A stretch of DNA of 22,815 nucleotides from a virus (Duplodnaviria > Heunggongvirae > Uroviricota > Caudoviricetes). The translations under genes were made by a program, and so were the position numbers. Shown piece by piece: positions 1 through 19,648 of the stretch. Below the pieces are notes generated by a model. It saw nothing but the letters and a program-made list of their open reading frames with translations. It did no database searches and had not been told where the DNA came from. Positions within the stretch are counted from its first letter, which is position 1, and every line of letters begins with the position of its first letter. The stretch lies in the IMG/VR virus record IMGVR_UViG_2609459792_000001, one strand, 5' to 3'.

Positions 1-699
1 CGCAGCTTCTGATGCCTTCGTGGTCGCGGTGGATGCAGATGTGGCTGCTGATTGTTGTGACGCTGAAGCATTCGTTTCTGACGTTTTCGCGGCACTGGCA
101 CTGGTAGCTGCCGCGCTTTTTGAGGACTCTGCAGCGGCAGCACTTTTTGATGCTTCAGTGGCCTTTGTTGATGCCGTTCCTGCGCTGGAAGACGCTGACT
201 GAGCCGACGACGCGGCCTGTCCGGCTGACGTGCTGGCTGCGCGTGCTGAGCCTGCAGCATCAGTCGCATGGGTTGCCGCCTCACGGGCAGATGTGCCGGC
301 ATCGCCGGCTGACTTCTTCGCGGCTGCCGTGTTCTGTGCCACTGCGGACGCGTTACGCGCCACCTCTTCCACCATCAGTTCAAAACGGCGCAGTGCCTCT
401 GGCCGGACATCATCCTCCGTCATTGCACCGAGGAAATCATTCAGTGTGCCCGGCTTTGAGTCCTCATATACGGTGATAATCCCGGCGTGTGACGGCGGGA
501 ATCCCTCCACCAACAGACTGACGCTGTACTGACCATACTCGACGTCCATTGTGTAACGCCCGGCTTCATCCGGGTTTTCTGAGGCCACTGTGTTCACCAC
601 CACCGTGGTGCTGTTGCGCCTGGCCTTTAGCTGAATGGTGCAGTTTTGTATCGGCTTACCTGCGCCATCTTTCAGTACACCTGAAATCCGTACTGCCAT
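1..699 (-). CDS. stf: Side tail fibre protein Stf (lambda orf-401-like), N-terminal 233 codons; 3' end lies beyond the window
   Basis: ATG at 699..697 with GGGGGG Shine-Dalgarno just upstream, open to the window edge. Translation starts MAVRISGVLKDGAGKPIQNCTIQLKA... and runs into an Ala/Ser-rich stretch, as in lambda Stf. Sits about 65 nt downstream of lom, as in lambda. Not in the ORF track because it has no stop in the window. Confidence 0.85.
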   Translation of the reverse strand, partial: MAVRISGVLKDGAGKPIQNCTIQLKARRNSTTVVVNTVASENPDEAGRYTMDVEYGQYSVSLLVEGFPPSHAGIITVYEDSKPGTLNDFLGAMTEDDVRPEALRRFELMVEEVARNASAVAQNTAAAKKSAGDAGTSAREAATHATDAAGSARAASTSAGQAASSAQSASSSAGTASTKATEASKSAAAAESSKSAAATSASAAKTSETNASASQQSAATSASTATTKASEAA

Positions 700-763
700 A
701 TTCCCCCCACAAAAAAGCCCGCCTGAACCGGCGGGCTGTCATAACACTGTGTTACCTGGCTAA

Positions 764-1363
764 TCAGAATTTATAACCGACACCAACGATGAAACTGTTG
801 GTACGCCAGTCACCGCTGCCGGAGCCTTCATAAGCGACGTCAACGGCCACGGATTCGGTCGGGTTAAACTGCACGCCAGCTCCCCACGCCAGAGAGGTGT
901 TACTGTGGCGAGCGTCATCACTTCCGGTCAGCACGTCGTGCGTTTTTCCCTTGTTGTCAGTTACGCGGAGATAATCCCCGGAGAAAGTCGAAACACGGCT
1001 GTAAGCCATACCCGCCATCGCATACGCGCTGAACCATTCATTCACGCGCACAGACGGCCCCGCCATCACGCTGAACCAGCGGTTACGCACGGAATCCTCA
1101 TGCCAGCGGGTATCGCTGTAATGCGTTTTTTGCTCATCTTCAGCGTTGGCATAACTGAACGACGTCACCATCCCCAGTGTGTCCGTAAACTCATAACGGT
1201 ATTTCACGTTAATCCCGTTCAGATCATCACTGCCGGGAACGTTCGTCCGGGCATGAAGATACCCCGCGCTCAGCGTGGACTGATGTTCAGACGCCCATAC
1301 AGGCGCACCGGATACGGCCAGACAGATGGCTGCGGACAAAATGGCTGCACAAACTTTACGCAT
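764..1363 (-). CDS. lom: Outer membrane protein Lom (Ail/Lom family beta-barrel)
   Basis: 199-aa ORF; signal peptide MRKVCAAILSAAICLAVSGAPVWA, C-terminal ...FIVGVGYKF beta-barrel signature; GAGG Shine-Dalgarno; lambda position between J and stf. Confidence 0.95.
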   Translation of the reverse strand: MRKVCAAILSAAICLAVSGAPVWASEHQSTLSAGYLHARTNVPGSDDLNGINVKYRYEFTDTLGMVTSFSYANAEDEQKTHYSDTRWHEDSVRNRWFSVMAGPSVRVNEWFSAYAMAGMAYSRVSTFSGDYLRVTDNKGKTHDVLTGSDDARHSNTSLAWGAGVQFNPTESVAVDVAYEGSGSGDWRTNSFIVGVGYKF

Positions 1364-1385
1364 AATTACCTCTCGCTTTTCTGCA

Positions 1386-1411
1386 ATAAAAAAGGCGCCA
1401 TTTCTGGCGCC
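1386..1411 (-). terminator. Rho-independent terminator between J and lom (lambda tJ-like)
   Basis: On the minus strand, a GC stem GGCGCCA / loop GAAA / TGGCGCC (1394..1411) followed by TTTTTT (1393..1388). Confidence 0.6.
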
Positions 1412-1430
1412 CGTATATGGGTTATAAAAT

Positions 1431-4880
<3,450 letters not shown>

Positions 4881-4940
4881 TCGTCATGCTCCATAAACGA
4901 CAAAACCGCCCGGAGGCGGTTTCACATAAAACATTTTGCA

Positions 4941-5597
4941 TCAGCGACCAATCACCACAACCTGACCACCATCCCCTTCGTCTGCCGTGCTGATCTCCTG
5001 AGAAACCACCCGTGACCCCACGCGCATTTCACCGTACAGAACAGGCAGAACATTGCCCTGGGCAACCATGTTATCCAGTGAGGAAAAATAGGTGTTCTGT
5101 TTGCCGTTATCCGTTGTCTGTGTGCGGGGAGTTCTGGCTTTCGGTGCCAGCATCTGCGCCACACCGCCAAGTATCATACTGGCACCGAGAGAAAACAGAT
5201 ACCGGTATACACGCCGCAATGGCTGCCCCCCAGCTGCAAGGGTTCCGGCATATAGCAACCGCAATGACGGCCGCCCCCAGCACAACCTGAAACACACCGC
5301 CACTTTTGGCCCCGGCAGACGCGGCACGATATGGATCACGGCACCATTTGCCAGCGGCTCATTAAGACGGGCAGATAATTCGGTTTCACCTGCATCACGC
5401 CCGGCAATGCGTACCTGATACCAGCCGTCGCTCAGTTTCTGACGAAACGCCGGGAGCTGTGTGGCCAGCGCCCGGATGGCTTCGGCCCCCGTTTTCACAC
5501 GAAGGTCGATGCGGCGGCCAAATCGTTGCAAATCCCCGTAAAGGCAGATGCGTGCCATGCCCGGTGACGCCAGAGGGAGTGTGTGCGTCGCTGCCAT
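4941..5597 (-). CDS. I: Tail tip assembly protein I (internally frame-scrambled but open)
   Basis: 218-aa ORF with lambda gpI-like N-terminus (MAATHTLPLASPGMARICLYGDLQRFGRRIDLRV...) and C-terminus (...VLPVLYGEMRVGSRVVSQEISTADEGDGGQVVVIGR). Overlaps the K 3' end by 103 nt, exactly as in lambda. The middle segment (about 5150..5320) reads as out-of-frame Arg-rich sequence while the Gly/Ala-rich hydrophobic segment is in another frame (ORF 5107..5295). Confidence 0.8.
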   Translation of the reverse strand: MAATHTLPLASPGMARICLYGDLQRFGRRIDLRVKTGAEAIRALATQLPAFRQKLSDGWYQVRIAGRDAGETELSARLNEPLANGAVIHIVPRLPGPKVAVCFRLCWGRPSLRLLYAGTLAAGGQPLRRVYRYLFSLGASMILGGVAQMLAPKARTPRTQTTDNGKQNTYFSSLDNMVAQGNVLPVLYGEMRVGSRVVSQEISTADEGDGGQVVVIGR

Positions 5598-6237
5598 TTG
5601 TCGGTATACCTCTCTCGTTTGCTCAGTTGTTCAGGAATATGGTGCAGCAGCTCGCCGTCACCACAGTAAATGGCGGCATGATTCGGCACCGATGAACCAA
5701 AACAGCACAGCAGCACATCGCCCGGCTGCGCCGCTGACAACGGCACCTGATACAGCCCTGTGGCCTCCAGATTATCCAGATAGAGATTCTGACCGTGACG
5801 CCACCAGTCATCCTCGCGATGAAAATCCGGCATCTCAATCCCCGCCAGATGGTAAGCATCCCGGAACAGCGTGTAACAGTCCGTCACCCCGTGCTCAAAG
5901 CGCCGCCCGGTGAGATGCGGCACACAGCGGAATTTATGAATCGTCCCCCGGCAGACCAGCCACCACGGCAAATCACTCTGCACCTGCAGCCGCCGGTCGG
6001 CCTCACTCAGCCAGGGCAGACCACCGGGGTGGCTGTGGACCAGCGCCACAATCTCACCCTGCATTTCTGCCTCAGCCAGTCCTCCGGCGACATACGGAAA
6101 TACGCCTCCGGCTCACCGGAGATATTCACGCAGGGAAAATATCTTTCCCCCTCCGGCGTGCTCACCACGAAGCCGCACGACTCCGCTGGCGCACATCGCC
6201 GGGCGTGCGCCAGAATCGCTGATTCTGTCTCTGTCAT
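5495..6237 (-). pseudogene. K: Tail tip assembly protein K (JAB/MPN + NlpC/P60 peptidase), frameshifted near the 5' end
   Basis: C-terminal ORF 5495..6064 (189 aa, MQGEIVALVHSHPGGLPWLSEAD... with JAMM HxH..S..D and NlpC/P60 Cys/His). An upstream ORF 6007..6237 in a different frame (MTETESAILAHARRCAPAESCGFVVSTPEGERYFPCVNISGEPEAYFRMSPEDW...) starts 6 nt after L. The frames are offset by one nucleotide near 6070; the lambda-type start MSPEDWL (ATG 6093) is in the upstream frame. Confidence 0.75.
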
Positions 6238-6242
6238 GGGAT

Positions 6243-6941
6243 TTACTGCGAAAGTTTGTTAATGGAAAGGAAGCCGCCAAAGTTGCCGACGTTATTGCGA
6301 AACTTACAGCCACTCAGGCATTTGCTGCATTTATCCTTCGTGATATCGGACGTTGTCTGGTCATATTCATCCGCGACCGCCGGACCGTGATAACCGCACT
6401 CATCGCCGCGATAGGTCCAGGTGCAGGTGTTGGCCAGCATGATACGTCCCGGAAAAACAGCGCCATCTGTTTCCGTCGGCGTGGACAGTACAAAGGAGGC
6501 ACTCACCGCGCTCAGTTCGCTGCACTGCTCGATGCGCCAGCGGCTGATCACCTCCTGCTCCGGATCGGCGTCACTGTTTCCGTTGACGAAGTTCACCGCA
6601 TCCAGAAAACGGGCATAAACCTTACGCCTGACCACCGTTCCGCCGACCAGACTCTGCAGATCTTCCGCCATCCCGGTGACCATGCCATACAGGTTAGAAA
6701 CCGTCAGCGTGGGGCGCGTACTGGTGCCTTTGCCATTCAGTTCGAAACCACTCCCCTGAATGGGATACGCCTGATACTGTCGCCCCTGCCAGGTGACCGG
6801 CTCACCTTTTTCGTTCTGCTCATTACAGAAAAAATAACGTTCTCCACCGACCTCTGTCAGGTCGATTTCCCATAGCACCACGCTGGCCGACTGCTCCGCA
6901 CGGGTGCATTCATTCAGTGTTTCCTGCCGGATATCCTGCAT
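6243..6941 (-). CDS. L: Tail tip protein L
   Basis: 232-aa ORF, lambda gpL length; ATG shares one base with the M stop codon (TGATG) at 6941, as in lambda. Confidence 0.93.
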   Translation of the reverse strand: MQDIRQETLNECTRAEQSASVVLWEIDLTEVGGERYFFCNEQNEKGEPVTWQGRQYQAYPIQGSGFELNGKGTSTRPTLTVSNLYGMVTGMAEDLQSLVGGTVVRRKVYARFLDAVNFVNGNSDADPEQEVISRWRIEQCSELSAVSASFVLSTPTETDGAVFPGRIMLANTCTWTYRGDECGYHGPAVADEYDQTTSDITKDKCSKCLSGCKFRNNVGNFGGFLSINKLSQ

Positions 6942-7270
6942 CAGTTCACCACCTGTTCAAACTCTGCGCTGAACTCAACACGCAACATACTGACCCGCGA
7001 CGACCATTTTGCGCAGGTCACCTTTATCTGCCGCCACTCATAAGGCGGCGTCCACAGAAAGGCTTTCCAGCCCCCGTGCTCTTCCAGAAACGACTCCAGT
7101 ACCGTGGCCTCCTCACGGGGGACAGAAAGCGTCACGCTGTACGTTTTCAGGTTGGCATTCAGCCCGGCAGGCGCTCGCTGAGAATAGCCATCACCAAAGC
7201 GCACCTTTCTTACAGAAGGGACCGAAGCCACATCCATACCGGGTTTCACTTTCCAGCGGAAGGTCTTCAT
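6941..7270 (-). CDS. M: Tail tip protein M
   Basis: 109-aa ORF, lambda gpM length; ATGA overlap with the H stop. Confidence 0.93.
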   Translation of the reverse strand: MKTFRWKVKPGMDVASVPSVRKVRFGDGYSQRAPAGLNANLKTYSVTLSVPREEATVLESFLEEHGGWKAFLWTPPYEWRQIKVTCAKWSSRVSMLRVEFSAEFEQVVN

Positions 7271-9846
7271 CGTCCACCTCCGGAGAACAGGCCACCATCA
7301 CGCATCTGTGTCTGAATTTCATCACGGGCACCCTTGCGGGCCATGTCATACACCGCCTTCAGAGCAGCCGGACCTATCTGCCCGTTCGTGCCGTCGTTGT
7401 TAATCACCACATGGTTATTCTGCTCAAACGTCCCGGACGCCTGCGACCGGCTGTCTGCCATGCTGCCCGGTGTACCGACATAACCGCCGGTGGCATAGCC
7501 GCGCATCAGCCGGTAAAGATTCCCCACGCCAATCCGGCTGGTTGCCTCCTTCGTGAAGACAAACTCACCACGGTGAACAATCCCCGCTGGCTCATATTTG
7601 CCGCCGGTTCCCGTAAATCCTCCGGTTGCAAAATGGAATTTCGCCGCAGCGGCCTGAATGGCTGTACCGCCTGACGCGGATGCGCCGCCACCAACAGCCC
7701 CGCCAATGGCGCTGCCGATACTCCCGACAATCCCCACCATTGCCTGCTTAAGCAGAATTTCTGTCATCATGGACAGCACGGAACGGGTGAAGCTGCGCCA
7801 GTTCTGCTCACTGCCGGTCAGCATCGCCGCCATATTCTGTGCAATACCATCAAAGGTCTGCGTGGCTGCACTTTTTACCTGCGACATACTGTCCGTGGCG
7901 CTCTCTTCCCACTCACTCCAGCCGGACTTCAGGCCTGCCATCCAGTTCCCGCGAAGCTGGTCTTCAGCCGCCCAGGTCTTTTTCTGCTCTGACATGACGT
8001 TATTCAGCGCCAGCGGATTATCGCCATACTGTTCCTTCAGGCGCTGTTCCGTGGCTTCCCGTTCTGCCTGCCGGTCAGTCAGCCCCCGGCTTTTCGCATC
8101 AATGGCGGCCCATTTTGCCCGTTGCTGCTGTGCGAATTTATCCGCCTGCTGCGCCAGCGCGTTCAGGCGCTCCTGATACGTAACCTTGTCGCCAAGTGCA
8201 GCCAGCTGGCGTTTGTACTCCAGCGTCTCATCTTTATGCGCCAGCAGGGATTTCTCCTGTGCAGACAGCTGGCGACGTTGCGCCGCCTCCTCCAGTACCG
8301 CGAACTGACTCTCCGCCTTCCACAAATCCCGGCGCTGCTGGCTGATTTTCTCATTCGCTCCGGCATGCTTCTCCAGCGTCCGGAGTTCTGCCTGAAGCGT
8401 CAGCAGGGCAGCATGAGCACTGTCTTCCTGACGATCGCCCGCAGACACCTTCACGCCGGACTGTTTCGGCTTTTTCAGCGTCGCTTCATAATCCTTTTTC
8501 GCCGCCGCCATCAGCGTGTTGTAATCCGCCTGCAGGATTTTCCCGTCTTTCAGTGCCTTGTTCAGTTCTTCCTGACGGGCGGTATATTTCTCCAGCGGCG
8601 TCTGCAGCCGTTCGTAAGCCTTCTGCGCCTCTTCGGTATATTTCAGCCGTGATGCCTCAGACTCGGCCCAGTCCTTTGCTGCCATCTCTCTGGCCTTTTC
8701 AAGATCGGCCTGCAACGTGGCGGCTGAAAGCCCAAGTTGCGCATTCGCTCTGTCCTCCCATGCTCCCCGGAGATTGGCAAGAAATGCTGAGGTTTTACCG
8801 CGCCGGTGGCTCCGGCTCTGATACCACTGCCATTTTTTGTCCGCCTCATCAAAAGCCTTTTCTGCTTTCTCCAGCATTCCCTGGGCAGTGTCCGGGCGAC
8901 CAATATCCAGCACCGAATCCCACATGGATTTGAATGCCCGTGCTGTCCTGTCTGCCCAGGTCTCCAGCGTGCCCATGTTCTCTTTCAGGCGGCGGGTCTG
9001 GTCATCAAACCCTTTCGTTGCGGCCTCGTTCGCCGCCTGCAATGCCCCGGCTTCATCTCCGGAACGCTGCAACTGAGCAACATACGCAATCTGCTCCGCC
9101 GTCACGTTATGGAACTGACGTGCCATCGCTGTCAGTCCCGACGTCGGGTCTGTGGTCAGCTTCCCGAAGGCTTCAGCGACCTTGTCCACCTCCACGCCGG
9201 ATGCAGAGGAGAAACGCGCCACACTCTGGCTGATCGCCTCAAACTGCTCACCACCACGCACACCGGCATTCACCAGCGCCGTCAGTGACTCGCTGGTCTG
9301 GTTAAACGTCAGCCCTGCCGCCTGCCCGGCTCTGGACAGGACCAGCATACGATCTGCCGTCAGTCCCGCCTGATTGCCGGAAAGGACCAGCGTTTTGTTG
9401 AAATCGGACAGGGTTGAGTTGCCCTGATACCAGGCATACGCCAGCGCACCGGTCGCCACCGCCAGCGAGGTGGCCCCCACCATCGGCAGGGTGATCGCAC
9501 CGGCAAGCCCCCTGAACATGGGGATCATCCCGCCGAAGGAGTCCTTAACCTGACCCCCCTGTTGCAGCAGGATCAGCCACGGGCTTTGCCCGCCTGCAAG
9601 CTGCGTGGCCACGTCGGTGAACTGTGCAGGCAGCATACGCATGGCGGCTTTATACTGCCCGACGGAAATCCCCGCTTTCTGTGCAGCCAGCGCCTGTCGG
9701 CTCAGCGACTGTTCAACGACTGCCGCTGTTTTTTTCGCATCAGTTTCCGTACCGGAAAAATGACGCCTGACTCTGGCCATCTGCTCGTCAAATCTGGCCG
9801 CATCCAGACTTAAATCAACGACCAGATCGCCTACCGGTTCAGCCAT
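7267..9846 (-). CDS. H: Tail length tape measure protein H
   Basis: 859-aa ORF starting MAEPVGDLVVDLSLDAARFDEQMARVRRHF, with long coiled-coil central part and Gly-rich C-terminal region; overlaps the T stop by 8 nt as in lambda. About 6 aa longer than my recollection of lambda gpH. Confidence 0.93.
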   Translation of the reverse strand: MAEPVGDLVVDLSLDAARFDEQMARVRRHFSGTETDAKKTAAVVEQSLSRQALAAQKAGISVGQYKAAMRMLPAQFTDVATQLAGGQSPWLILLQQGGQVKDSFGGMIPMFRGLAGAITLPMVGATSLAVATGALAYAWYQGNSTLSDFNKTLVLSGNQAGLTADRMLVLSRAGQAAGLTFNQTSESLTALVNAGVRGGEQFEAISQSVARFSSASGVEVDKVAEAFGKLTTDPTSGLTAMARQFHNVTAEQIAYVAQLQRSGDEAGALQAANEAATKGFDDQTRRLKENMGTLETWADRTARAFKSMWDSVLDIGRPDTAQGMLEKAEKAFDEADKKWQWYQSRSHRRGKTSAFLANLRGAWEDRANAQLGLSAATLQADLEKAREMAAKDWAESEASRLKYTEEAQKAYERLQTPLEKYTARQEELNKALKDGKILQADYNTLMAAAKKDYEATLKKPKQSGVKVSAGDRQEDSAHAALLTLQAELRTLEKHAGANEKISQQRRDLWKAESQFAVLEEAAQRRQLSAQEKSLLAHKDETLEYKRQLAALGDKVTYQERLNALAQQADKFAQQQRAKWAAIDAKSRGLTDRQAEREATEQRLKEQYGDNPLALNNVMSEQKKTWAAEDQLRGNWMAGLKSGWSEWEESATDSMSQVKSAATQTFDGIAQNMAAMLTGSEQNWRSFTRSVLSMMTEILLKQAMVGIVGSIGSAIGGAVGGGASASGGTAIQAAAAKFHFATGGFTGTGGKYEPAGIVHRGEFVFTKEATSRIGVGNLYRLMRGYATGGYVGTPGSMADSRSQASGTFEQNNHVVINNDGTNGQIGPAALKAVYDMARKGARDEIQTQMRDGGLFSGGGR

Positions 9847-10677
9847 ACCGGACTCCTCCTGCGATCCCTTCTGATACTGTCATCAGCATTACGTCATCCT
9901 CCGTCATGTCCGCCACATCCGGGGAAGTAGGGATAACTTCATTCCCGTCCGGGCCAAAGCGGACACCTCCGGCAAGCCCTGCCGCTTTCTGCATCAGCAC
10001 ATCATCTTCAGGCTCTTCGTCAGCCTCACGCCGGTTCAGCAAACTGAAATCCAGCGGATGCATATCCGGATCGCTGAAAAACAGGCTGAGCACGGTGTAC
10101 GTCAGCCCGGAAAAGTGCATATCCAGCAGAACATCATGAAAATAATGGGTACTGTAAAAGCGGTGCCAGTCGGCATACTCCGTGGATGACATCCCGGCAA
10201 GCATGGCACGCCAGTCGGGTCGCCCCATCTCACGCGCCAGTTTCAGGGCAAAACTCAGCTCACCGTCGAACACTTTCCCGCAGAAACAGGCTCTGCGGGC
10301 CCGGCGTCCTCTGTCTGTTCAGGGGCATTATTCACCACAAACTCATACATACCAGACAGCCGGTACACCACGTTTTCAGCATGAGAAATTGCCTCCGTGG
10401 GCCAGGTGGTAAGCACTTCCTGCTCAATCTGTTTAACGGCTTCATTCATGGACGGCATCTGCGTCTTCTGCGGATGGTTATGCCACAGGGACATCGCCAC
10501 CAGAAACGCGCCGGTTCTGATGGCGTCTTCCACAGTAAACTTCCGGTTGCTGTCTGACTCCGCCTGTTCTGCCTGCCGTTTCATCAGGGCGAGATGCTCA
10601 ATACGCTGCAGGGCTGACAGTTCAGAAAGCGTGACGGTCACACCGTTATGTTCAAATGATTCGGTTTTCAGGAACAT
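9839..10677 (-). CDS. T: Tail assembly chaperone G-T fusion, made by -1 programmed ribosomal frameshift
   Basis: T-frame ORF 9839..10273 has no independent start and lies in the -1 frame relative to G; the G GGA AAG slippery heptamer is present. Total span 839 nt equals lambda G-T. Confidence 0.85.
10255..10677 (-). CDS. G: Tail assembly chaperone G
   Basis: 140-aa ORF, lambda gpG length; ends ...AGKCSTVS with the slippery heptamer in its last codons. Confidence 0.93.
   Translation of the reverse strand: MFLKTESFEHNGVTVTLSELSALQRIEHLALMKRQAEQAESDSNRKFTVEDAIRTGAFLVAMSLWHNHPQKTQMPSMNEAVKQIEQEVLTTWPTEAISHAENVVYRLSGMYEFVVNNAPEQTEDAGPAEPVSAGKCSTVS
10273..10279 (-). promoter_or_regulatory. -1 programmed frameshift slippery heptamer G GGA AAG (G to G-T)
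   Basis: Minus-strand sequence gcG GGA AAG tgt..., with GGA and AAG in the G frame, 5 codons before the G stop. Confidence 0.8.
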
Positions 10678-10692
10678 CGCTGACTCTCCGGA

Positions 10693-11433
10693 TTAACTGG
10701 CGGTGACGTTGATTTCTGCAACCGCAGCAAACTCACCATTACCGGATACAACCGGAATGTTGACCTTGCCTGCAGCAACACCTTTCACGGTGATGGTCAT
10801 ACCACTGACCGACACGGTGGCTTTTGTTTTATCCGCAGACACCGCACGGAAGCTCTTGTCGGTTGCGCCCTCCGGCTGGAATGCCACGGTCAGCGTGGTG
10901 CTCTGCCCTTTCACTACGGAAGCACTGGCGGGTGTCACCGTCATGCCGGTTGTCGCCGTCACCGTGCTGCGATCTTCTGCCATCGACGGACGTCCCACAT
11001 TGGTGACTTTCACCGTGCGGGTGATCACTTCCTTCGCCGTCACCGCCTTACCGATACTGCTGACCCAGCCGCGGAACACATCGACCGTGCCGTTCGGGAA
11101 GCGGATTTTATAGGCACGGGTATCGCCTTCATTAAACCACGCCAGCAGCGCCTGCTGCCCCTGCTCTCCGGGCATCCACGCCAGCGTGAAGCTGGTATCT
11201 CCGGCAGATTTCTGCCCCTGCCCGGTCGCAGTCCAGTCTGCATCTTCATCATCGAGATAGCTGTCGTCATAGGACTCAGCGGTCAGTTCGCCGGGCGTCA
11301 GGTCTTTAACTTTTGCCAGACGCGACCAGTCAACGTCTGAAAGCGGATTCGCATAAGGGTCACCGCTCCCCTTATAAACCCACAGGGTGGTCCCGGCACC
11401 TTTCACCGGCATTACAGGATTTGGTACAGGCAT
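10693..11433 (-). CDS. V: Major tail tube protein V
   Basis: 246 aa from ATG 11433 ([31 protein letters not shown]...), preceded by GAGGA Shine-Dalgarno; C-terminal Ig-like domain. The ORF-track start at 11463 would remove the lambda-like 7-nt gap after U. Confidence 0.92.
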
Positions 11434-11440
11434 AGCGTCC

Positions 11441-11836
11441 TCACATTTCATAGGTAATGACATACGTCAGATCGGCTGAACTCCACAGGCCCGCATCATC
11501 GTCGCGCCGGTAGTCATAGCCGCTGGCCACCATACTGGTGATCAAATCTGACAGTGCCGGGATATCGCTCATCACCGGATAAATCCGGGACTCCATCCAC
11601 GCATCCAGCTCTGAATCCGGCACCTGAGCAGGCAGGAAAACTTCGATATGCAGCTCCGCCTGCCAGGTATCGCTGTCCAGCTCTTCGCCCGTGTATTCAG
11701 CGCCGGTGAGATAAACGGCAACTGCCGGAAAATCCGCCTCATCAAAAACAGCGGGGCGACCATCAAAAAGCGTCGCCCCGGTGTCATGCTTCTCCAGTGC
11801 ATCCAGTACGGCTGCACGGAGTTCAGTATGTTTCAT
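11441..11836 (-). CDS. U: Tail tube terminator protein U
   Basis: 131-aa ORF, lambda gpU length; 4-nt overlap with Z. Confidence 0.93.
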
Positions 11837-12411
11837 CGCTTTATTACCATTCTCAGTTGATGCTGCAGCGCATAGCCCAGCTCTTTCGGAAGACGTTCAC
11901 GCCGTATCCGTTCAATATTCTGTTTAAACGCCGTGGTAAGCGGCACCGCCATCGGGATTTTCACCACATCAATGGGGTAACGGTTTTTCCCGGCCACACG
12001 CTGCATGACATGCCACCGGCCATTTTTCAGTTGCTGAATAAACGCGCCGGGAATACGACGGTTTCCCACCACAAGCACGCTGCCGCCACCTTTCAGGGAT
12101 GAACGCTGCCCCTTTTTACGACGTCTGCGGCGGGAAAGGACAACCCGCGCGTTACCCAGCTTGATTACGGGCAAATCCCCCCGGTTAACCCTGATTCTGG
12201 CCTGCGGATTTTTGATCGTGGCCCTTTTCAGCCTGGCCCTTTCCTTTACCAGTTTCCGGCGTACCTTTGTCTCACGGGCAACCTGTGCCACCGACTGCGA
12301 TATCGCGGATGAAGCAACGCGGTTAATGGCCATTGCGGCGGCACCGGGCACCGCCGTTCTGCTGATACGGCTGAGGTTTTCAACGGCCTGCTCAAGACCT
12401 TTTATGGCCAT
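11833..12411 (-). CDS. Z: Tail completion protein Z
   Basis: 192-aa ORF, lambda gpZ length and position. Confidence 0.92.
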   Translation of the reverse strand: MAIKGLEQAVENLSRISRTAVPGAAAMAINRVASSAISQSVAQVARETKVRRKLVKERARLKRATIKNPQARIRVNRGDLPVIKLGNARVVLSRRRRRKKGQRSSLKGGGSVLVVGNRRIPGAFIQQLKNGRWHVMQRVAGKNRYPIDVVKIPMAVPLTTAFKQNIERIRRERLPKELGYALQHQLRMVIKR

Positions 12412-12422
12412 ACATCCCCCTT

Positions 12423-12776
12423 TCAGCGGCGACGGTTAACGGCAGGCGGTACGCCCCGCCCAAGCCAGAGATGACAGCTTCCGCCATCATCCGGCGAAAT
12501 CCGGTCTATCCAGAAGTTTTCCTCACCGATGGTCAGCGTGTCGCCGCGCCGCAGCTGCCGCACATCATCAGTCCGGACAAACAGGGACGGGCTGGAGCCT
12601 TCAACGCGCACGCCCTGTCCGGCATAGCTGATATTTTCAGGGTCATCAAAAACACCACGTATCACAGCACCGGACTGCTCACCGGATGTCATGGTGGCTG
12701 ACGTTCCCATGTACCCGCGTATCGTTTCATCGGCGCAGGCAATGGCAGCATCGAACAGGTTATCGAAATCAGCCAC
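12423..12776 (-). CDS. FII: Head-tail joining protein FII
   Basis: 117-aa ORF starting (GTG) MADFDNLFDAAIACADETIRGYMGTSA...; 11-nt gap after FI as in lambda. Confidence 0.92.
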   Translation of the reverse strand: MADFDNLFDAAIACADETIRGYMGTSATMTSGEQSGAVIRGVFDDPENISYAGQGVRVEGSSPSLFVRTDDVRQLRRGDTLTIGEENFWIDRISPDDGGSCHLWLGRGVPPAVNRRR

Positions 12777-12787
12777 AGCGCCTCCCG

Positions 12788-13183
12788 TTATTGCATTCTG
12801 GCCAGGCCGCGCTCTGTCATTTCAGCTGCCACACCGGCAGAGACACGGAACGCCGTTCCCGGCAGCACAAATGCCACAGCCTCATCCCGCGTGGCGTGAA
12901 GTGCATCAGTATGCAGCGTCACCAGTGCCACAACCGTGACCAGATCAGCCGTATCAGTCACGGTATCCGGCTGCGCTGATACAACCTCATTTTCATGTCC
13001 GGTCAGCACATTTTCCGGGCTGAGAGGGGTATCCTGATCGGCAGTGTCGCCCGTGTCATCAAGCTCTTCTTCCAGCTCTGCCACACGGAGCGCCAGTTCT
13101 TCTTTCGTCCCCGTCAGGCTGATATCACGGTTCAGTTGTTCACCCAGCGAGCGGAGACGGGCAATCAGTTCATCTTTCGTCAT
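12788..13183 (-). CDS. FI: DNA packaging protein FI
   Basis: 131 aa from ATG 13183 (MTKDELIARLRSLGEQLNRD...), GGAGGAG Shine-Dalgarno immediately upstream; 41-nt gap after E as in lambda. The ORF-track start at 13222 overlaps the E stop and lacks a ribosome-binding site. Confidence 0.9.
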   Translation of the reverse strand: MTKDELIARLRSLGEQLNRDISLTGTKEELALRVAELEEELDDTGDTADQDTPLSPENVLTGHENEVVSAQPDTVTDTADLVTVVALVTLHTDALHATRDEAVAFVLPGTAFRVSAGVAAEMTERGLARMQ

Positions 13184-13224
13184 GGACTCCTCCACAGAGA
13201 AACAATGGCCCCGAAGGGCCATGA

Positions 13225-14250
13225 TTACGCCAGTTGTACGGACACGAACGCATCAGGGTCAGCCAGCAGCATCAGCGGTGCTGACTGAATCATGGTGAAC
13301 TCACGCGCCGGATCGCCGGTGGTCACCCAGTTTTTCGGGTAGCGGGCAGAGGCGTTAATACCTTCGCGCTGTGCGTCCGCATCCTGAATGCAGCCATAGG
13401 TGCGCAGACCGCGTGCCTGAGTGTTCCCCAGCACCATCGTGTTGTCCGGCAGGAAGTTCTTTTTGACGTCGTTTTCCACGTACTGTCCGGAATACACGAC
13501 GATCGCCGTATCGCCATACATCCCCTTATAGGACACCGCTTCGCCCAGGTCTTTTACCGCTGTCTCCAGCTCGGAATTAGAGCCGCGACGGGTATCCAGC
13601 TTCTCCCTGACGGCTTTGAAGGAACGGAACAGCGCCCAGCCTTTCGGGTCAAACACGATGATATTCACCACGCCGCTGGCGTTCAGCGCGTAGGCTTCGA
13701 TATCGTCGGTCGGGTCATACGTGGACTTGTCACGCTTGCTCCACTCCGTGCCGCCGGACTGCGTGATATTGTTCGCCGCACTGCGGCCCATATCCACCTC
13801 AACCGGATCGAAGGCTTCACCGGTCATGGTGTATTTGCCCTTGAGCACGGCAGAAACTGCCTGCATCTCTTCGACCTGAGCAATGGCCAGCTCTTCGTCA
13901 CGCATGTTCTGCATGATGATGCGACGGCGGCGGTAAGCCGGGTCCGCCAGATTCTGCGGATCTTCATCCGGCAGGCGACGCAGGGTCATCTGCGGATTCA
14001 CCTCATGCTTGGGTTTGACATATCCCGGCGTAAATTCAGAGGTGGAGCCGCCACGGGAACGGATAACCTCACCGGAAACAATCGGCGAAACGTACAGCGC
14101 CATGTTTACCAGTCCCGGAATTTGTGAGAGATAGACTTTCTCCGTAGTGAAGGGATAGCTCTCACGGAAAAAGAGACGCAGAAACAGCGGATCAAACTTA
14201 AATTTCTGCTCATTTGCCGCCAGCAGCTGGGCGGTTGTGTACATCGACAT
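13225..14250 (-). CDS. E: Major capsid protein E
   Basis: 341 aa from ATG 14250 (MSMYTTAQLLAANEQKFKFDPLFLRLFF...), lambda gpE length; 55-nt D-E spacing as in lambda. Confidence 0.93.
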   Translation of the reverse strand: MSMYTTAQLLAANEQKFKFDPLFLRLFFRESYPFTTEKVYLSQIPGLVNMALYVSPIVSGEVIRSRGGSTSEFTPGYVKPKHEVNPQMTLRRLPDEDPQNLADPAYRRRRIIMQNMRDEELAIAQVEEMQAVSAVLKGKYTMTGEAFDPVEVDMGRSAANNITQSGGTEWSKRDKSTYDPTDDIEAYALNASGVVNIIVFDPKGWALFRSFKAVREKLDTRRGSNSELETAVKDLGEAVSYKGMYGDTAIVVYSGQYVENDVKKNFLPDNTMVLGNTQARGLRTYGCIQDADAQREGINASARYPKNWVTTGDPAREFTMIQSAPLMLLADPDAFVSVQLA

Positions 14251-14305
14251 AAAAAAATCCCGTAAAAAAAGCCGCACAGGCGGCCTTTAGTGATGAAGGG
14301 TAAAG

Positions 14306-14638
14306 TTAAACGATGCTGATTGCCGTTCCGGCAAACGCGGTCCGTTTTTTCGTCTCGTCGCTGGCAGCCTCCGGCCAGAGCACATCCTCATAACGGAACG
14401 TGCCGGACTTGTAGAACGTCAGTGTGGTGCTGGTCTGGTCAGCAGCAACCGCAAGAATGCCAACGGCAGCACCGTCGGTGGTGCCATCCCACGCAACCAG
14501 CTTACGGGTGGATGTGTCCAGCATCAGCGGGGTCATTGCAGGCGCTTTCGCACTCAATCCGCCGGGCGCGGTTGCGGTATGAGCCGGGTCACTATTGCCC
14601 AGCGGCTGGTAATGGGTAAAGGTTTCTTTGCTCGTCAT
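14306..14638 (-). CDS. D: Head decoration protein D
   Basis: 110 aa from ATG 14638 ([27 protein letters not shown]...); 9-nt gap after the C/Nu3 stop with AAGGG ribosome-binding site. Confidence 0.93.
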
Positions 14639-14647
14639 AAACATCCC

Positions 14648-15253
14648 TTACACTGGTGTGTTCAGCAAATCGTTAACGGCATCAGATGCCGGGTTACCTG
14701 CAGCCAGCGGTGCCGGTGCCCCCTGCATCAGACGATCCAGCGCAGTGTCACTGCGCGCCTGTGCACTCTGTGGTGCAGCTGCCAGAATGCGGCGGGCCGT
14801 TTCCACGGTCATACCGGGGGTTTCTGCCAGCACGCGGGCCTGTTCTTCGCGTCCGTGAGCCTCCTCACAGTTGAGGATCCCCATAATGCGGCTGTTTTCT
14901 GCCGCAACCGCAGCGGTGATCTGCGCGTTCACGTCCGGCTGCGCCGCGCTGGCGTTTTCGCCCTCCGTCGCTGGCACTACGTCAGTAACGTCAGCCTGCG
15001 AAGCAGTGGCTGAAACAGTTGTTGATTGAGTCTCTTTGGTCATTCGCCCTCCTGAGAGACGGGATTTACGTGCATCCAGTGCATCACGCATAACGGTGAT
15101 CGCATCGGTGCTGTTGACAAGTTCATCAGCCAGTCCGGCATCAATGGCCTCCTGACCGCTGTACACTGCAGCCTCGGTATCCAGCACAGCCTGCACGGAC
15201 AGGCCGGTATATGCCGACACCTTCTGTGCAAACATCCGGCGGGTTGCATCCAT
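14648..15253 (-). CDS. nu3: Capsid scaffolding protein Nu3 (in-frame internal start within C)
   Basis: ATG at 15253 in the C frame (MDATRRMFAQKVSAYTGLSVQ...); 606 nt to the shared stop, identical to lambda Nu3 length. Confidence 0.8.
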   Translation of the reverse strand: MDATRRMFAQKVSAYTGLSVQAVLDTEAAVYSGQEAIDAGLADELVNSTDAITVMRDALDARKSRLSGGRMTKETQSTTVSATASQADVTDVVPATEGENASAAQPDVNAQITAAVAAENSRIMGILNCEEAHGREEQARVLAETPGMTVETARRILAAAPQSAQARSDTALDRLMQGAPAPLAAGNPASDAVNDLLNTPV

Positions 15254-15947
15254 CCGGGACTGCAATGTTTCCCGGACATCATCCGGTAGATGGCTGTAGG
15301 GGTTGCCATCCACCTTATGGCTGCCGCTGTAAATCAGCGTGATTTCCACGCCCTGTTTCTCCAGTGCAGCGCCGTAATTACTGTGAGCCATCATGACGCC
15401 GATGGAGCCTGTCCGGGCGGTCTGCGTGACCAGACGCCGGGAGGCGGCGCTGGCAAGCAACTGACCTGCACTGCAGTTCATGTCGTTGGCCAGCGCCCAT
15501 ACCGGCTTTATGTCACGCACACGGGCGATGATGTCAGCGCAGTCAAATGCCCCTGCCACCATCCCGCCTGGCGTATCCATATCGAGCAGAATGCCGTCCA
15601 CCATCGGGTCGCTGGCAGCCTGTTGCAGACGGGCGATAATGCCGTTGTAACCGGTCATCCCCGAATACGGCTGCAGCGCTCGCGTCCGACTGACCAGCGT
15701 GCCGGACACCGGCAGCACGGCGATGCCTTTCATGACCTGATAACTGCGGGCCTGTCGTGGTCCGTCATCATCAACGGATAACGCCAGCGCCGCGGGTGCC
15801 TCTCCGGCAGTCAGGCTGTCGCCGGATACCGCATCCGTCAGGCGGCTGATCCCAAGCTGGCCTGCAAGCGCACAAAAGAAAACCCGCGCATAGGCGGGTT
15901 CAAGCATCAGCGGCTCATTAAAGGCCATACTGGCAATATGCGGGAGA

Positions 15948-15967
<20 letters not shown>
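14648..15967 (-). CDS. C: Capsid assembly protease C (S49/ClpP-like head maturation protease)
   Basis: Probable GTG start at 15967 ((M)TAELRNLPHIASMAFNEPLMLEPAYARVFF...) with GAGGAGGAG Shine-Dalgarno 6-8 nt upstream, giving 439 aa and the lambda-like 20-nt overlap with B. The ORF-track ATG at 16114 would overlap B by 167 nt. Confidence 0.88.

Positions 15968-19648
<3,681 letters not shown>

What the first reader, a model, noticed from the sequence alone, without database searches (positions are those of the whole stretch)
6007..6237. K has a one-nucleotide frame break and a 48-codon upstream ORF carrying the missing JAMM N-terminus
The C-terminal K ORF (from ATG 6064) begins MQGEIVALVHSHPGG, with the JAMM HxH..S..D motif followed by an NlpC/P60 Cys/His. 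The lambda-type start MSPEDWL (ATG 6093) is in a different frame, which points to a single-base loss near 6070 (ctgagg where ctgcagg is expected). That upstream frame is open back to an ATG 6 nt after the L stop and encodes a plausible JAB-domain N-terminus including candidate catalytic Glu residues (...APAESCGFVVSTPEGERYFPCVNISGEPEAYFR...). This suggests the intact K in this phage lineage is about 247 aa and starts right after L, and that the copy here is frameshifted.
Basis: partly seen in the sequence, partly recalled or inferred. Interest (0 to 1): 0.55.

Follow-up and report, generated by a model that had tools for sequence, protein, structure and literature searches.

The report
One missing base splits prophage gene K
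The tail-assembly gene K of this lambda-like prophage is one base short and so reads as two pieces, but the intact 247-residue form is already well known and the missing base is most likely an assembly error, so the finding is ordinary.

Summary
On the minus strand, K is 743 nt where all 29 full-length homologues I fetched are 744 nt. One base is missing in codon 56, between window positions 6073 and 6072. The gene therefore reads as a 76-aa ORF (6237..6007) and a 189-aa ORF (6064..5495).

Putting the base back gives a 247-aa protein with a Prok-JAB domain followed by an NlpC/P60 domain. It is identical to RefSeq WP_225096602.1 ("C40 family peptidase"). This architecture was described in 2006, so nothing here is new.

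The break is probably not biological:
- The same window has about 26 more window-only gaps in the adjacent genes I and J.
- In the C-terminal part of J there are about 20 gaps but almost no substitutions against the best reference.
- 11 of 14 single-base gaps in J fall on sites that vary between prophage copies (p = 3e-11).
- K codon 56 is itself highly variable (CAG, CGG, AGT, AGG).
- No clean assembly carries the gapped allele. The only other carrier is a contig missing about 170 bases.

Most likely cause: bases dropped from a consensus built on collapsed, near-identical prophage copies. A real pseudogene mutation is not excluded (about 17%). The "lambda-type start" MSPEDWL itself comes from a missing G in the 1982 lambda reference sequence.

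The parts
6007..6237 (-). 76-aa ORF. Codons 1-55 (6237..6073) are the true K N-terminus, the first half of the JAB/MPN domain including the catalytic-type Glu19. From 6072 down to the stop at 6007 it is out-of-frame read-through.
   Evidence: Pfam Prok-JAB profile positions 4-58, 27.8 bits; tblastn frame -1 for K residues 1-56
6070..6075 (-). Site of the missing base, in K codon 56. The window reads CTG AG|G CAG; homologues read CTG CAG, CGG, AGG or AGT followed by GCA. The gap lies between 6073 and 6072, or one or two bases 3' of that, depending on which allele is taken as the original.
   Evidence: alignments A1 and A2; allele table CAG x14, CGG x3, AGT x3, AGG x1, with 'AG' only in the window and L005
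5495..6071 (-). Remainder of K in the second frame, codons 57-247 plus the stop: the JAB HxH...S..D motif and the whole NlpC/P60 domain. The mechanical ORF starts at ATG 6064.
6243..6941 (-). Gene L (232 aa), intact. Its stop lies 5 nt upstream of the K ATG.
   Evidence: 94% identity to GE3 L over 232 aa in a single frame
4941..5597 (-). Gene I. The ORF stays open (218 aa), but residues about 95-137 are scrambled by six window-only gaps at 5197-5322 that sum to 15 nt.
   Evidence: gap list; protein alignment A3
1434..4880 (-). Gene J. The first 687 codons (4880..2817) are intact. The C-terminal third is spread over frames -2, -3, -1, -2 by about 20 window-only gaps at 1972-2850.

Best explanation
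This is the ordinary tail-tip assembly gene K of a lambda-like E. coli prophage. K is a 247-aa protein with an N-terminal JAB/MPN (JAMM-type) metallopeptidase domain and a C-terminal NlpC/P60 cysteine peptidase domain. It sits in the conserved order L-K-I-J.

The single missing base in codon 56 is most likely not a mutation. It looks like a consensus or assembly artefact. E. coli genomes usually carry several lambdoid prophages whose K-I-J modules are nearly identical. When reads from such copies are collapsed into one consensus, positions where the copies disagree can be dropped, either as gap-majority columns or as ambiguity codes that are later stripped. Codon 56 is one of the most variable positions in K.

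What is shown: the gap exists, the repaired protein is known, the neighbouring genes carry many gaps of the same one-sided kind, and those gaps fall on polymorphic sites.

What is inferred: that the K gap arose by the same process, and the exact way bases were lost.

The biochemical role of K is taken from the literature and was not tested here. K is needed for tail assembly, is not found in the virion, and is predicted to process the ubiquitin-like protein I.
For: 1. All 29 full-length K homologues fetched are 744 nt; the window is 743 nt. None of 6,668 K copies in 3,848 complete E. coli genomes has the gapped allele. Neither do the GTDB species representatives or the JGI metagenome contigs.

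2. Against a clean scaffold (L066), window 6100-16244 shows only a 1-nt difference in the non-coding L-K spacer and two in-frame coding indels (9 nt and 3 nt). All frame-disturbing gaps are window-only and confined to K (6072), I (5197-5322) and J (1972-2850) (where all 33 internal indels are gaps in the window).

3. For window 1400-2900, the best of 4,633 matching E. coli records aligns 1501 nt against 1531 nt at 98.0% identity. The difference is almost all gaps: about 20 deletion events and 0-4 substitutions. Natural decay does not produce this pattern.

4. 11 of 14 single-base gaps in J lie on sites that are polymorphic among three references, against a background of 6.6% (binomial p = 3e-11). 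With a six-reference panel the count is 12 of 14.

5. K codon 56 occurs as CAG, CGG, AGT and AGG. Five independent short-read contigs (four read here) start exactly at the ATG three codons downstream, which suggests an assembly-graph branch at this spot.

6. The only other carrier of the gapped allele is IMG/VR contig UViG_2531839332_000012 (L005). It has 8 further gaps within K and about 170 missing bases in 6.4 kb. Those gaps are also enriched at polymorphic sites (34% against 6.6%, p = 4e-25). It also differs from the window at a SNP 9 nt upstream of the gap.

7. One sample carries the identical K protein next to three different head modules. This shows the kind of duplication that such a collapse needs.

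8. Domain assignment of the repaired protein: Prok-JAB residues 4-104 (E 6.7e-14) and NLPC_P60 residues 111-224 (E 5.8e-13). It is an exact match to WP_225096602.1, in a cluster of 12,883 members.
Against: - No reads or quality values are available, so the artefact is inferred and not observed.
- The K gap is isolated, about 750 nt from the nearest other gap. Unlike the J gaps, it cannot be tied to an otherwise identical reference: the closest K differs by 4 substitutions as well.
- In the six-reference alignment the gapped column itself is invariant (C). The variability is in the codon as a whole.
- A second contig shares the gap, which could instead mean a real allele inherited by descent.
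- Frameshifted K copies do occur in real prophages.
Confidence: 0.78

Rival explanations
1. The deletion is real. This prophage copy carries a K pseudogene, a 1-nt deletion that separates the JAB catalytic Glu from the HxH/S/D motif and the NlpC/P60 domain. The prophage could then make tails only if another resident prophage supplied K in trans.
For: - The base is absent from the sequence as given.
- The gap is isolated, not inside a gap cluster.
- A second contig with a different flanking SNP has the same gap.
- Truncated K products are common in databases: cluster 2 has 2,159 members.
- If the original codon was AGG, the loss shortens a GGG run to GG, a plausible slippage site.
Against: - The allele is absent from 6,668 K copies in complete E. 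coli genomes and from the GTDB and JGI collections.
- The exact 76-aa product is absent from a 15-billion-protein collection.
- The only other carrier is itself riddled with missing bases.
- The adjacent I and J genes in the same window carry about 26 gaps that are not natural.
- The other 16 kb of head and tail genes are intact.
- Many of the truncated K entries are contig-end truncations, not frameshifts.
Confidence: 0.17
2. The frame break is functional. Either a programmed -1 ribosomal frameshift restores full-length K, as in the lambda G/G-T pair, or K is made as two separate polypeptides that work together.
For: - A -1 shift within 6115..6073 would in principle rejoin the two frames.
- The window does contain a real G/T slippery site, GGGAAAG at 10273-10279.
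Against: - There is no X_XXY_YYZ heptamer in the upstream frame anywhere in 6237..6007.
- The GGGAAAG at 6143-6149 is in the wrong register and lies upstream of a stop in the target frame.
- The break is not conserved: 29 of 29 homologues are single 744-nt ORFs.
- The break would separate Glu19 from the metal ligands of a single JAB domain.
Confidence: 0.02

Closest known systems
Lambda gpK / TAPK family (RefSeq 'C40 family peptidase', 247 aa; Pfam Prok-JAB PF14464 + NLPC_P60 PF00877; PHROG 30), e.g. WP_225096602.1, mEp460 YP_007112090.1 and the K of resequenced lambda PV340536.1
   Same: - Same position between L and I, and the same 5-nt L-K spacer as the closest homologues (some have 4 nt).
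- 99.3% DNA identity to the closest copy.
- After one base is restored, the protein is identical to WP_225096602.1.
- Same JAB motif (E19, H68xH70, S78, D81) and same NlpC/P60 Cys121/His187.
. The domain architecture, and the predicted processing of the ubiquitin-like protein I, were described by Iyer, Burroughs and Aravind 2006 (PMC1779556).
   Different: As written, the window's copy is 743 nt and is split over two frames at codon 56.
Reference lambda K (J02459 / NC_001416, NP_040598.1; 199 aa, 14276..14875)
   Same: - It also appears as a 76-aa upstream ORF (14133..14363) plus a shorter K starting at MSPEDWL.
- It has the same out-of-frame tail, RQKCRVRLWRWSTATPVVCPG.

   Different: - The missing base is a different one: a G in GGAGGC-TATTTCC, 31 nt upstream of the window's gap.
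- Independently sequenced lambdas (PV340536.1, LC730321.1, KT232076.1, DE3, lambda imm21/imm434) have the G and a 247-aa K. The reference form is therefore most likely a legacy sequencing error.
Lambda G / G-T programmed -1 frameshift
   Same: Two overlapping frames in a tail-assembly gene. The true G/T site is present in this window at 10273-10279.
   Different: K has no slippery heptamer, and the frame break is not conserved in any homologue.

Membership tests
Lambda gpK / TAPK (JAB + NlpC/P60 tail assembly peptidase) | N-terminal JAB/MPN domain with the E...HxH...S..D motif | tested here: met
   The repaired protein matches Prok-JAB over residues 4-104, E 6.7e-14. E19, H68, H70, S78 and D81 were read directly from the sequence. 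It also aligns to the solved JAB protein 2kks_A over residues 7-105. In the window as written, the domain is split between two frames.
Lambda gpK / TAPK (JAB + NlpC/P60 tail assembly peptidase) | C-terminal NlpC/P60 (C40) papain-like domain | tested here: met
   NLPC_P60 over residues 111-224, full profile 1-105, E 5.8e-13
Lambda gpK / TAPK (JAB + NlpC/P60 tail assembly peptidase) | Gene order H-M-L-K-I-J in a lambdoid tail module | tested here: met
   ORF map, tblastn with GE3 proteins, annotated homologous regions
Lambda gpK / TAPK (JAB + NlpC/P60 tail assembly peptidase) | One continuous ORF of about 247 codons | tested here: not met
   743 nt against 744 nt in 29 of 29 homologues. The frame changes from -1 to -3 at codon 56. 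This most likely reflects sequence quality, not biology.
Lambda gpK / TAPK (JAB + NlpC/P60 tail assembly peptidase) | Required for tail-tip assembly; peptidase activity, predicted to act on protein I | not testable with these tools
   Literature only: PMC1779556, PMC10721106, PMC12617516
Programmed -1 ribosomal frameshift gene pair | Slippery heptamer X_XXY_YYZ in the zero frame within the frame overlap | tested here: not met
   None in 6237..6007. The GGGAAAG at 6143-6149 is out of register.
Programmed -1 ribosomal frameshift gene pair | Two-frame organisation conserved in homologues | tested here: not met
   All homologues are single ORFs
Real prophage pseudogene (natural decay) | The allele recurs in independent high-quality assemblies, and decay shows substitutions and indels in both directions | tested here: not met
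   The allele is absent from complete E. coli genomes, GTDB representatives and JGI metagenomes. Gaps in the window's K-I-J are one-sided, with almost no substitutions in the C-terminal part of J.

The most novel reading that the evidence does not exclude
The one-base deletion is real and tolerated. The prophage would then keep a split K: a 76-aa fragment carrying the JAB Glu, and a 189-aa fragment carrying HxH/S/D plus NlpC/P60. It would rely on a paralogous K from a co-resident lambdoid prophage for tail assembly. That would be an example of prophages sharing a tail-tip assembly enzyme in trans.
Probability: 0.04. Interest if true: 0.25.

Novelty: already known. Interest (0 to 1): 0.08.

Why it matters
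It matters very little biologically. K as a 247-aa JAB + NlpC/P60 protein is standard RefSeq annotation and has been in the literature since 2006.

The practical value is as a quality warning. The K-I-J part of this window (about 1970-6075) is a damaged consensus. Frame breaks, odd ORFs or 'novel' peptides found there should not be read as biology.

One side point is worth knowing. The canonical lambda reference still carries a one-base gap that truncates K to 199 aa and removes the JAB catalytic Glu. Constructs or models built from NP_040598 / P03729 therefore lack part of the enzyme.

Tried and rejected
- Exact-pattern scans for the gapped 25-mer. There were 0 hits in GTDB genome contigs and 0 in JGI metagenome contigs. 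There was 1 hit in IMG/VR (L005), and that contig turned out to be full of gaps itself.
- Search for the window's own source. A 55-mer spanning J gaps found nothing in IMG/VR. A 49-mer from the stf region gave 52 loci, none identical to the window. The source therefore remains unknown and no read-level check was possible.
- Programmed frameshifting. Rejected: there is no slippery heptamer and the only GGGAAAG in K is out of register.
- The six gaps at 11716-12843 against STEC346 first looked like more window errors. They are homopolymer insertions in STEC346, whose U, Z and FI genes are annotated as frameshifted or carrying an internal stop. They disappear against L066.
- Literature searches for a published note on the lambda K reference error found nothing relevant. 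The Casjens and Hendrix review was not held.
- I did not run the large homology searches or a structure prediction. The exact-sequence look-up and Pfam already settle the identity of the gene.

Full report
**What is in the sequence**

The window is the late region of a lambda-like E. coli prophage, with the genes on the minus strand. The order is lysis genes, Nu1, A, W, B, C, D, E, FI, FII, Z, U, V, G/T, H (9846..7267), M (7270..6941), L (6941..6243), K, I (5597..4941), J (from 4880), lom (1363..764) and the start of stf.

Where K is expected there are two ORFs:
- A 76-aa ORF at 6237..6007. It starts 5 nt after the L stop.
- A 189-aa ORF at 6064..5495. It begins MQGEIVALVHSHPGG.

**The frame break**

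I aligned the window with intact K genes from phages mEp460 and 2B8 and from E. coli strains STEC005 and STK77-E (A1), and then with lambda and strain GE3 (A2). Exactly one base is missing, between 6073 and 6072. The window has CTG-AGGCAG; the others have CTGCAGGCAG, CTGCGGGCAG or CTGAGGGCAG. tblastn puts K residues 1-56 in frame -1 and residues 57-247 in frame -3.

**What the gene is**

Restoring one base gives a 247-aa protein with two Pfam domains: Prok-JAB (residues 4-104, E 6.7e-14) and NLPC_P60 (residues 111-224, E 5.8e-13). The 76-aa fragment matches the first half of the JAB profile (positions 4-58). The 189-aa fragment matches the second half (positions 66-112) plus NlpC/P60.

The JAMM-type residues are E19, H68-S-H70, S78 and D81. 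The papain-like residues are C121 and H187 (read).

That protein is found on at least 13 contigs and sits in a 90%-identity cluster of 12,883 members. The R56 version also exists.

RefSeq annotates the homologues as 744-nt genes starting 4-5 nt after L. The JAB + NlpC/P60 architecture of 'TAPK', and its predicted action on the ubiquitin-like protein I, were published in 2006 (PMC1779556). Recent structural papers report that gpK is required for tail assembly but is not detected in virions (PMC10721106; PMC12617516).

**Is the missing base biological?**

Several independent lines say probably not.

1. *The gaps are one-sided.* Aligned with the closest full-length E. coli match (STEC346), all 33 internal indels are gaps in the window. 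Six of these, at 11716-12843, are homopolymer insertions in STEC346 itself, whose U, Z and FI genes are annotated as frameshifted or carrying an internal stop. Against a clean scaffold (L066), window 6100-16244 shows only a 1-nt difference in the non-coding L-K spacer and two in-frame coding indels (9 nt and 3 nt). All 26 frame-disturbing gaps are window-only and lie in J (1972-2850), I (5197-5322) and K (6072).

2. *J has gaps but almost no substitutions.* For window 1400-2900, the best of 4,633 matching E. coli records aligns 1501 nt against 1531 nt at 98.0% identity. Base by base this is about 20 deletion events and 0-4 substitutions. As a result J is spread over frames -2, -3, -1, -2. Gene I keeps an open frame, but its Gly/Ala-rich linker is translated out of frame (A3). 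Natural decay does not produce twenty deletions and no substitutions.

3. *The gaps sit on variable sites.* 11 of 14 single-base gaps in J lie on sites that differ among three reference prophages, against a background of 6.6% (binomial p = 3e-11). With six references the count is 12 of 14. This is what one expects when reads from two or more nearly identical prophage copies are merged and the disagreeing positions are dropped, either as gap-majority columns or as ambiguity codes later removed.

4. *The K gap sits in a hypervariable codon.* Among the fetched loci, codon 56 is CAG (14), CGG (3), AGT (3) or AGG (1). Only the window and L005 have 'AG'. Five independent short-read contigs (four read here) begin exactly at the ATG three codons downstream, which points to an assembly-graph branch here.

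5. *No clean assembly has this allele.* There are none among 6,668 K copies in 3,848 complete E. coli genomes, none in the GTDB representatives and none in JGI metagenome contigs. The exact 76-aa product is absent from a 15-billion-protein collection.

6. *The single other carrier is itself badly damaged.* IMG/VR contig UViG_2531839332_000012 (L005) has 8 further gaps within K and about 170 missing bases in 6.4 kb. Those are again enriched at polymorphic sites (34% against 6.6%, Fisher p = 4e-25). It also differs from the window at a SNP 9 nt upstream of the gap. Independent recurrence of the same artefact at a hypervariable codon explains this at least as well as shared descent does.

7. *The substrate for collapse exists.* E. 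coli genomes carry a median of three copies of this region. One sample carries the identical K protein next to three different head modules.

**Caveats**

I had no reads or quality values. The K gap is isolated, about 750 nt from the nearest other gap. Unlike the J gaps, it cannot be matched to an otherwise identical reference: the nearest K differs by 4 substitutions. A real one-base deletion, possibly GGG to GG if the codon was AGG, therefore remains possible. I put it at about 17%.

Programmed frameshifting is effectively excluded. There is no X_XXY_YYZ heptamer in the overlap, the only GGGAAAG in K is out of register and lies upstream of a stop in the target frame, and no homologue has two frames.

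**The 'lambda-type start'**

The lambda reference (J02459/NC_001416) annotates K as 199 aa starting at MSPEDWL, with a 148-nt gap after L. In that sequence the same 76-aa upstream ORF is present (14133..14363), with the same out-of-frame tail. The cause is a missing G in GGAGGC-TATTTCC, 31 nt upstream of the window's gap (A2).

Only J02459, NC_001416 and two other records have this allele.

**Verdict**

- Nothing is novel. Interest is low.
- The useful outcome is a warning that window 1970-6075 is unreliable at single-base level.

Noticed in passing
L008 (NC_001416) 1134-1364 and ~1267; lambda coordinates 14133-14363 and ~14266: The lambda reference sequence lacks one G (GGAGGC-TATTTCC) compared with all other K genes and with independently resequenced lambda. 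This is why reference K is annotated as 199 aa from MSPEDWL and lacks the JAB N-terminus, including the catalytic-type Glu. Only J02459, NC_001416, OR474059 and OR974322 carry this allele.
   Followed up: partly
window 5197-5322 (gene I, minus strand): There are six window-only gaps summing to 15 nt. The I ORF stays open, but residues about 95-137, the Gly/Ala-rich linker and hydrophobic segment, are replaced by out-of-frame, Arg-rich sequence.
   Followed up: yes
window 1972-2850 (gene J C-terminal third, minus strand): There are about 20 window-only gaps with almost no substitutions against E. coli GE3, so J is broken into frames -2, -3, -1, -2. 11-12 of the 14 single-base gaps sit on sites that vary between prophage copies.
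   Followed up: yes
L005 (IMGVR_UViG_2531839332_000012) 1-6376; also L012 (IMGVR_UViG_2531839454_000022): L005 lacks about 170 bases in 6.4 kb relative to clean references, preferentially at polymorphic sites. L012 shows 41 gap openings in 1.6 kb against the window; I did not check which sequence lacks the bases. Both come from the same IMG taxon-id series, so this may be a batch of low-quality assemblies, or loss of ambiguity codes during processing.
   Followed up: partly
L072-L075, position 1: Five independent short-read contigs, four of them read here (ENA, Logan, and NCBI Shigella sonnei GCA_014411625.1), start exactly at ATGCAGGG, the ATG of the 189-aa ORF. This produces '189-aa endopeptidase' entries that are contig-end truncations of K, not frameshifts.
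   Followed up: partly
L006 (E. coli STEC346, NZ_CP091044.1) 11987-13735: The RefSeq genes U, Z and FI of this prophage are annotated as frameshifted or carrying an internal stop. The differences from the window are single extra bases in homopolymer runs, which look like long-read homopolymer errors in that assembly.
   Followed up: partly
window 10273-10279 (minus strand): The canonical GGGAAAG slippery site of the lambda G / G-T programmed -1 frameshift is present at the G/T overlap (G 10677..10255, T 10273..9839).
   Followed up: no
PHROG families phrog_4199 and phrog_7305: phrog_4199 positions 236-311 match the whole 76-aa ORF, including its out-of-frame tail. phrog_7305 is a 76-position profile of the K N-terminus. 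Frameshifted K fragments therefore seem to have been deposited often enough to shape 'families'.
   Followed up: no
L064, L066, L067 (sample ERZ28569453, three scaffolds): The identical 247-aa K protein sits next to three different head and tail-shaft modules in one sample. This shows how the K-I-J tail-tip module is shared between co-occurring lambdoid prophages.
   Followed up: no
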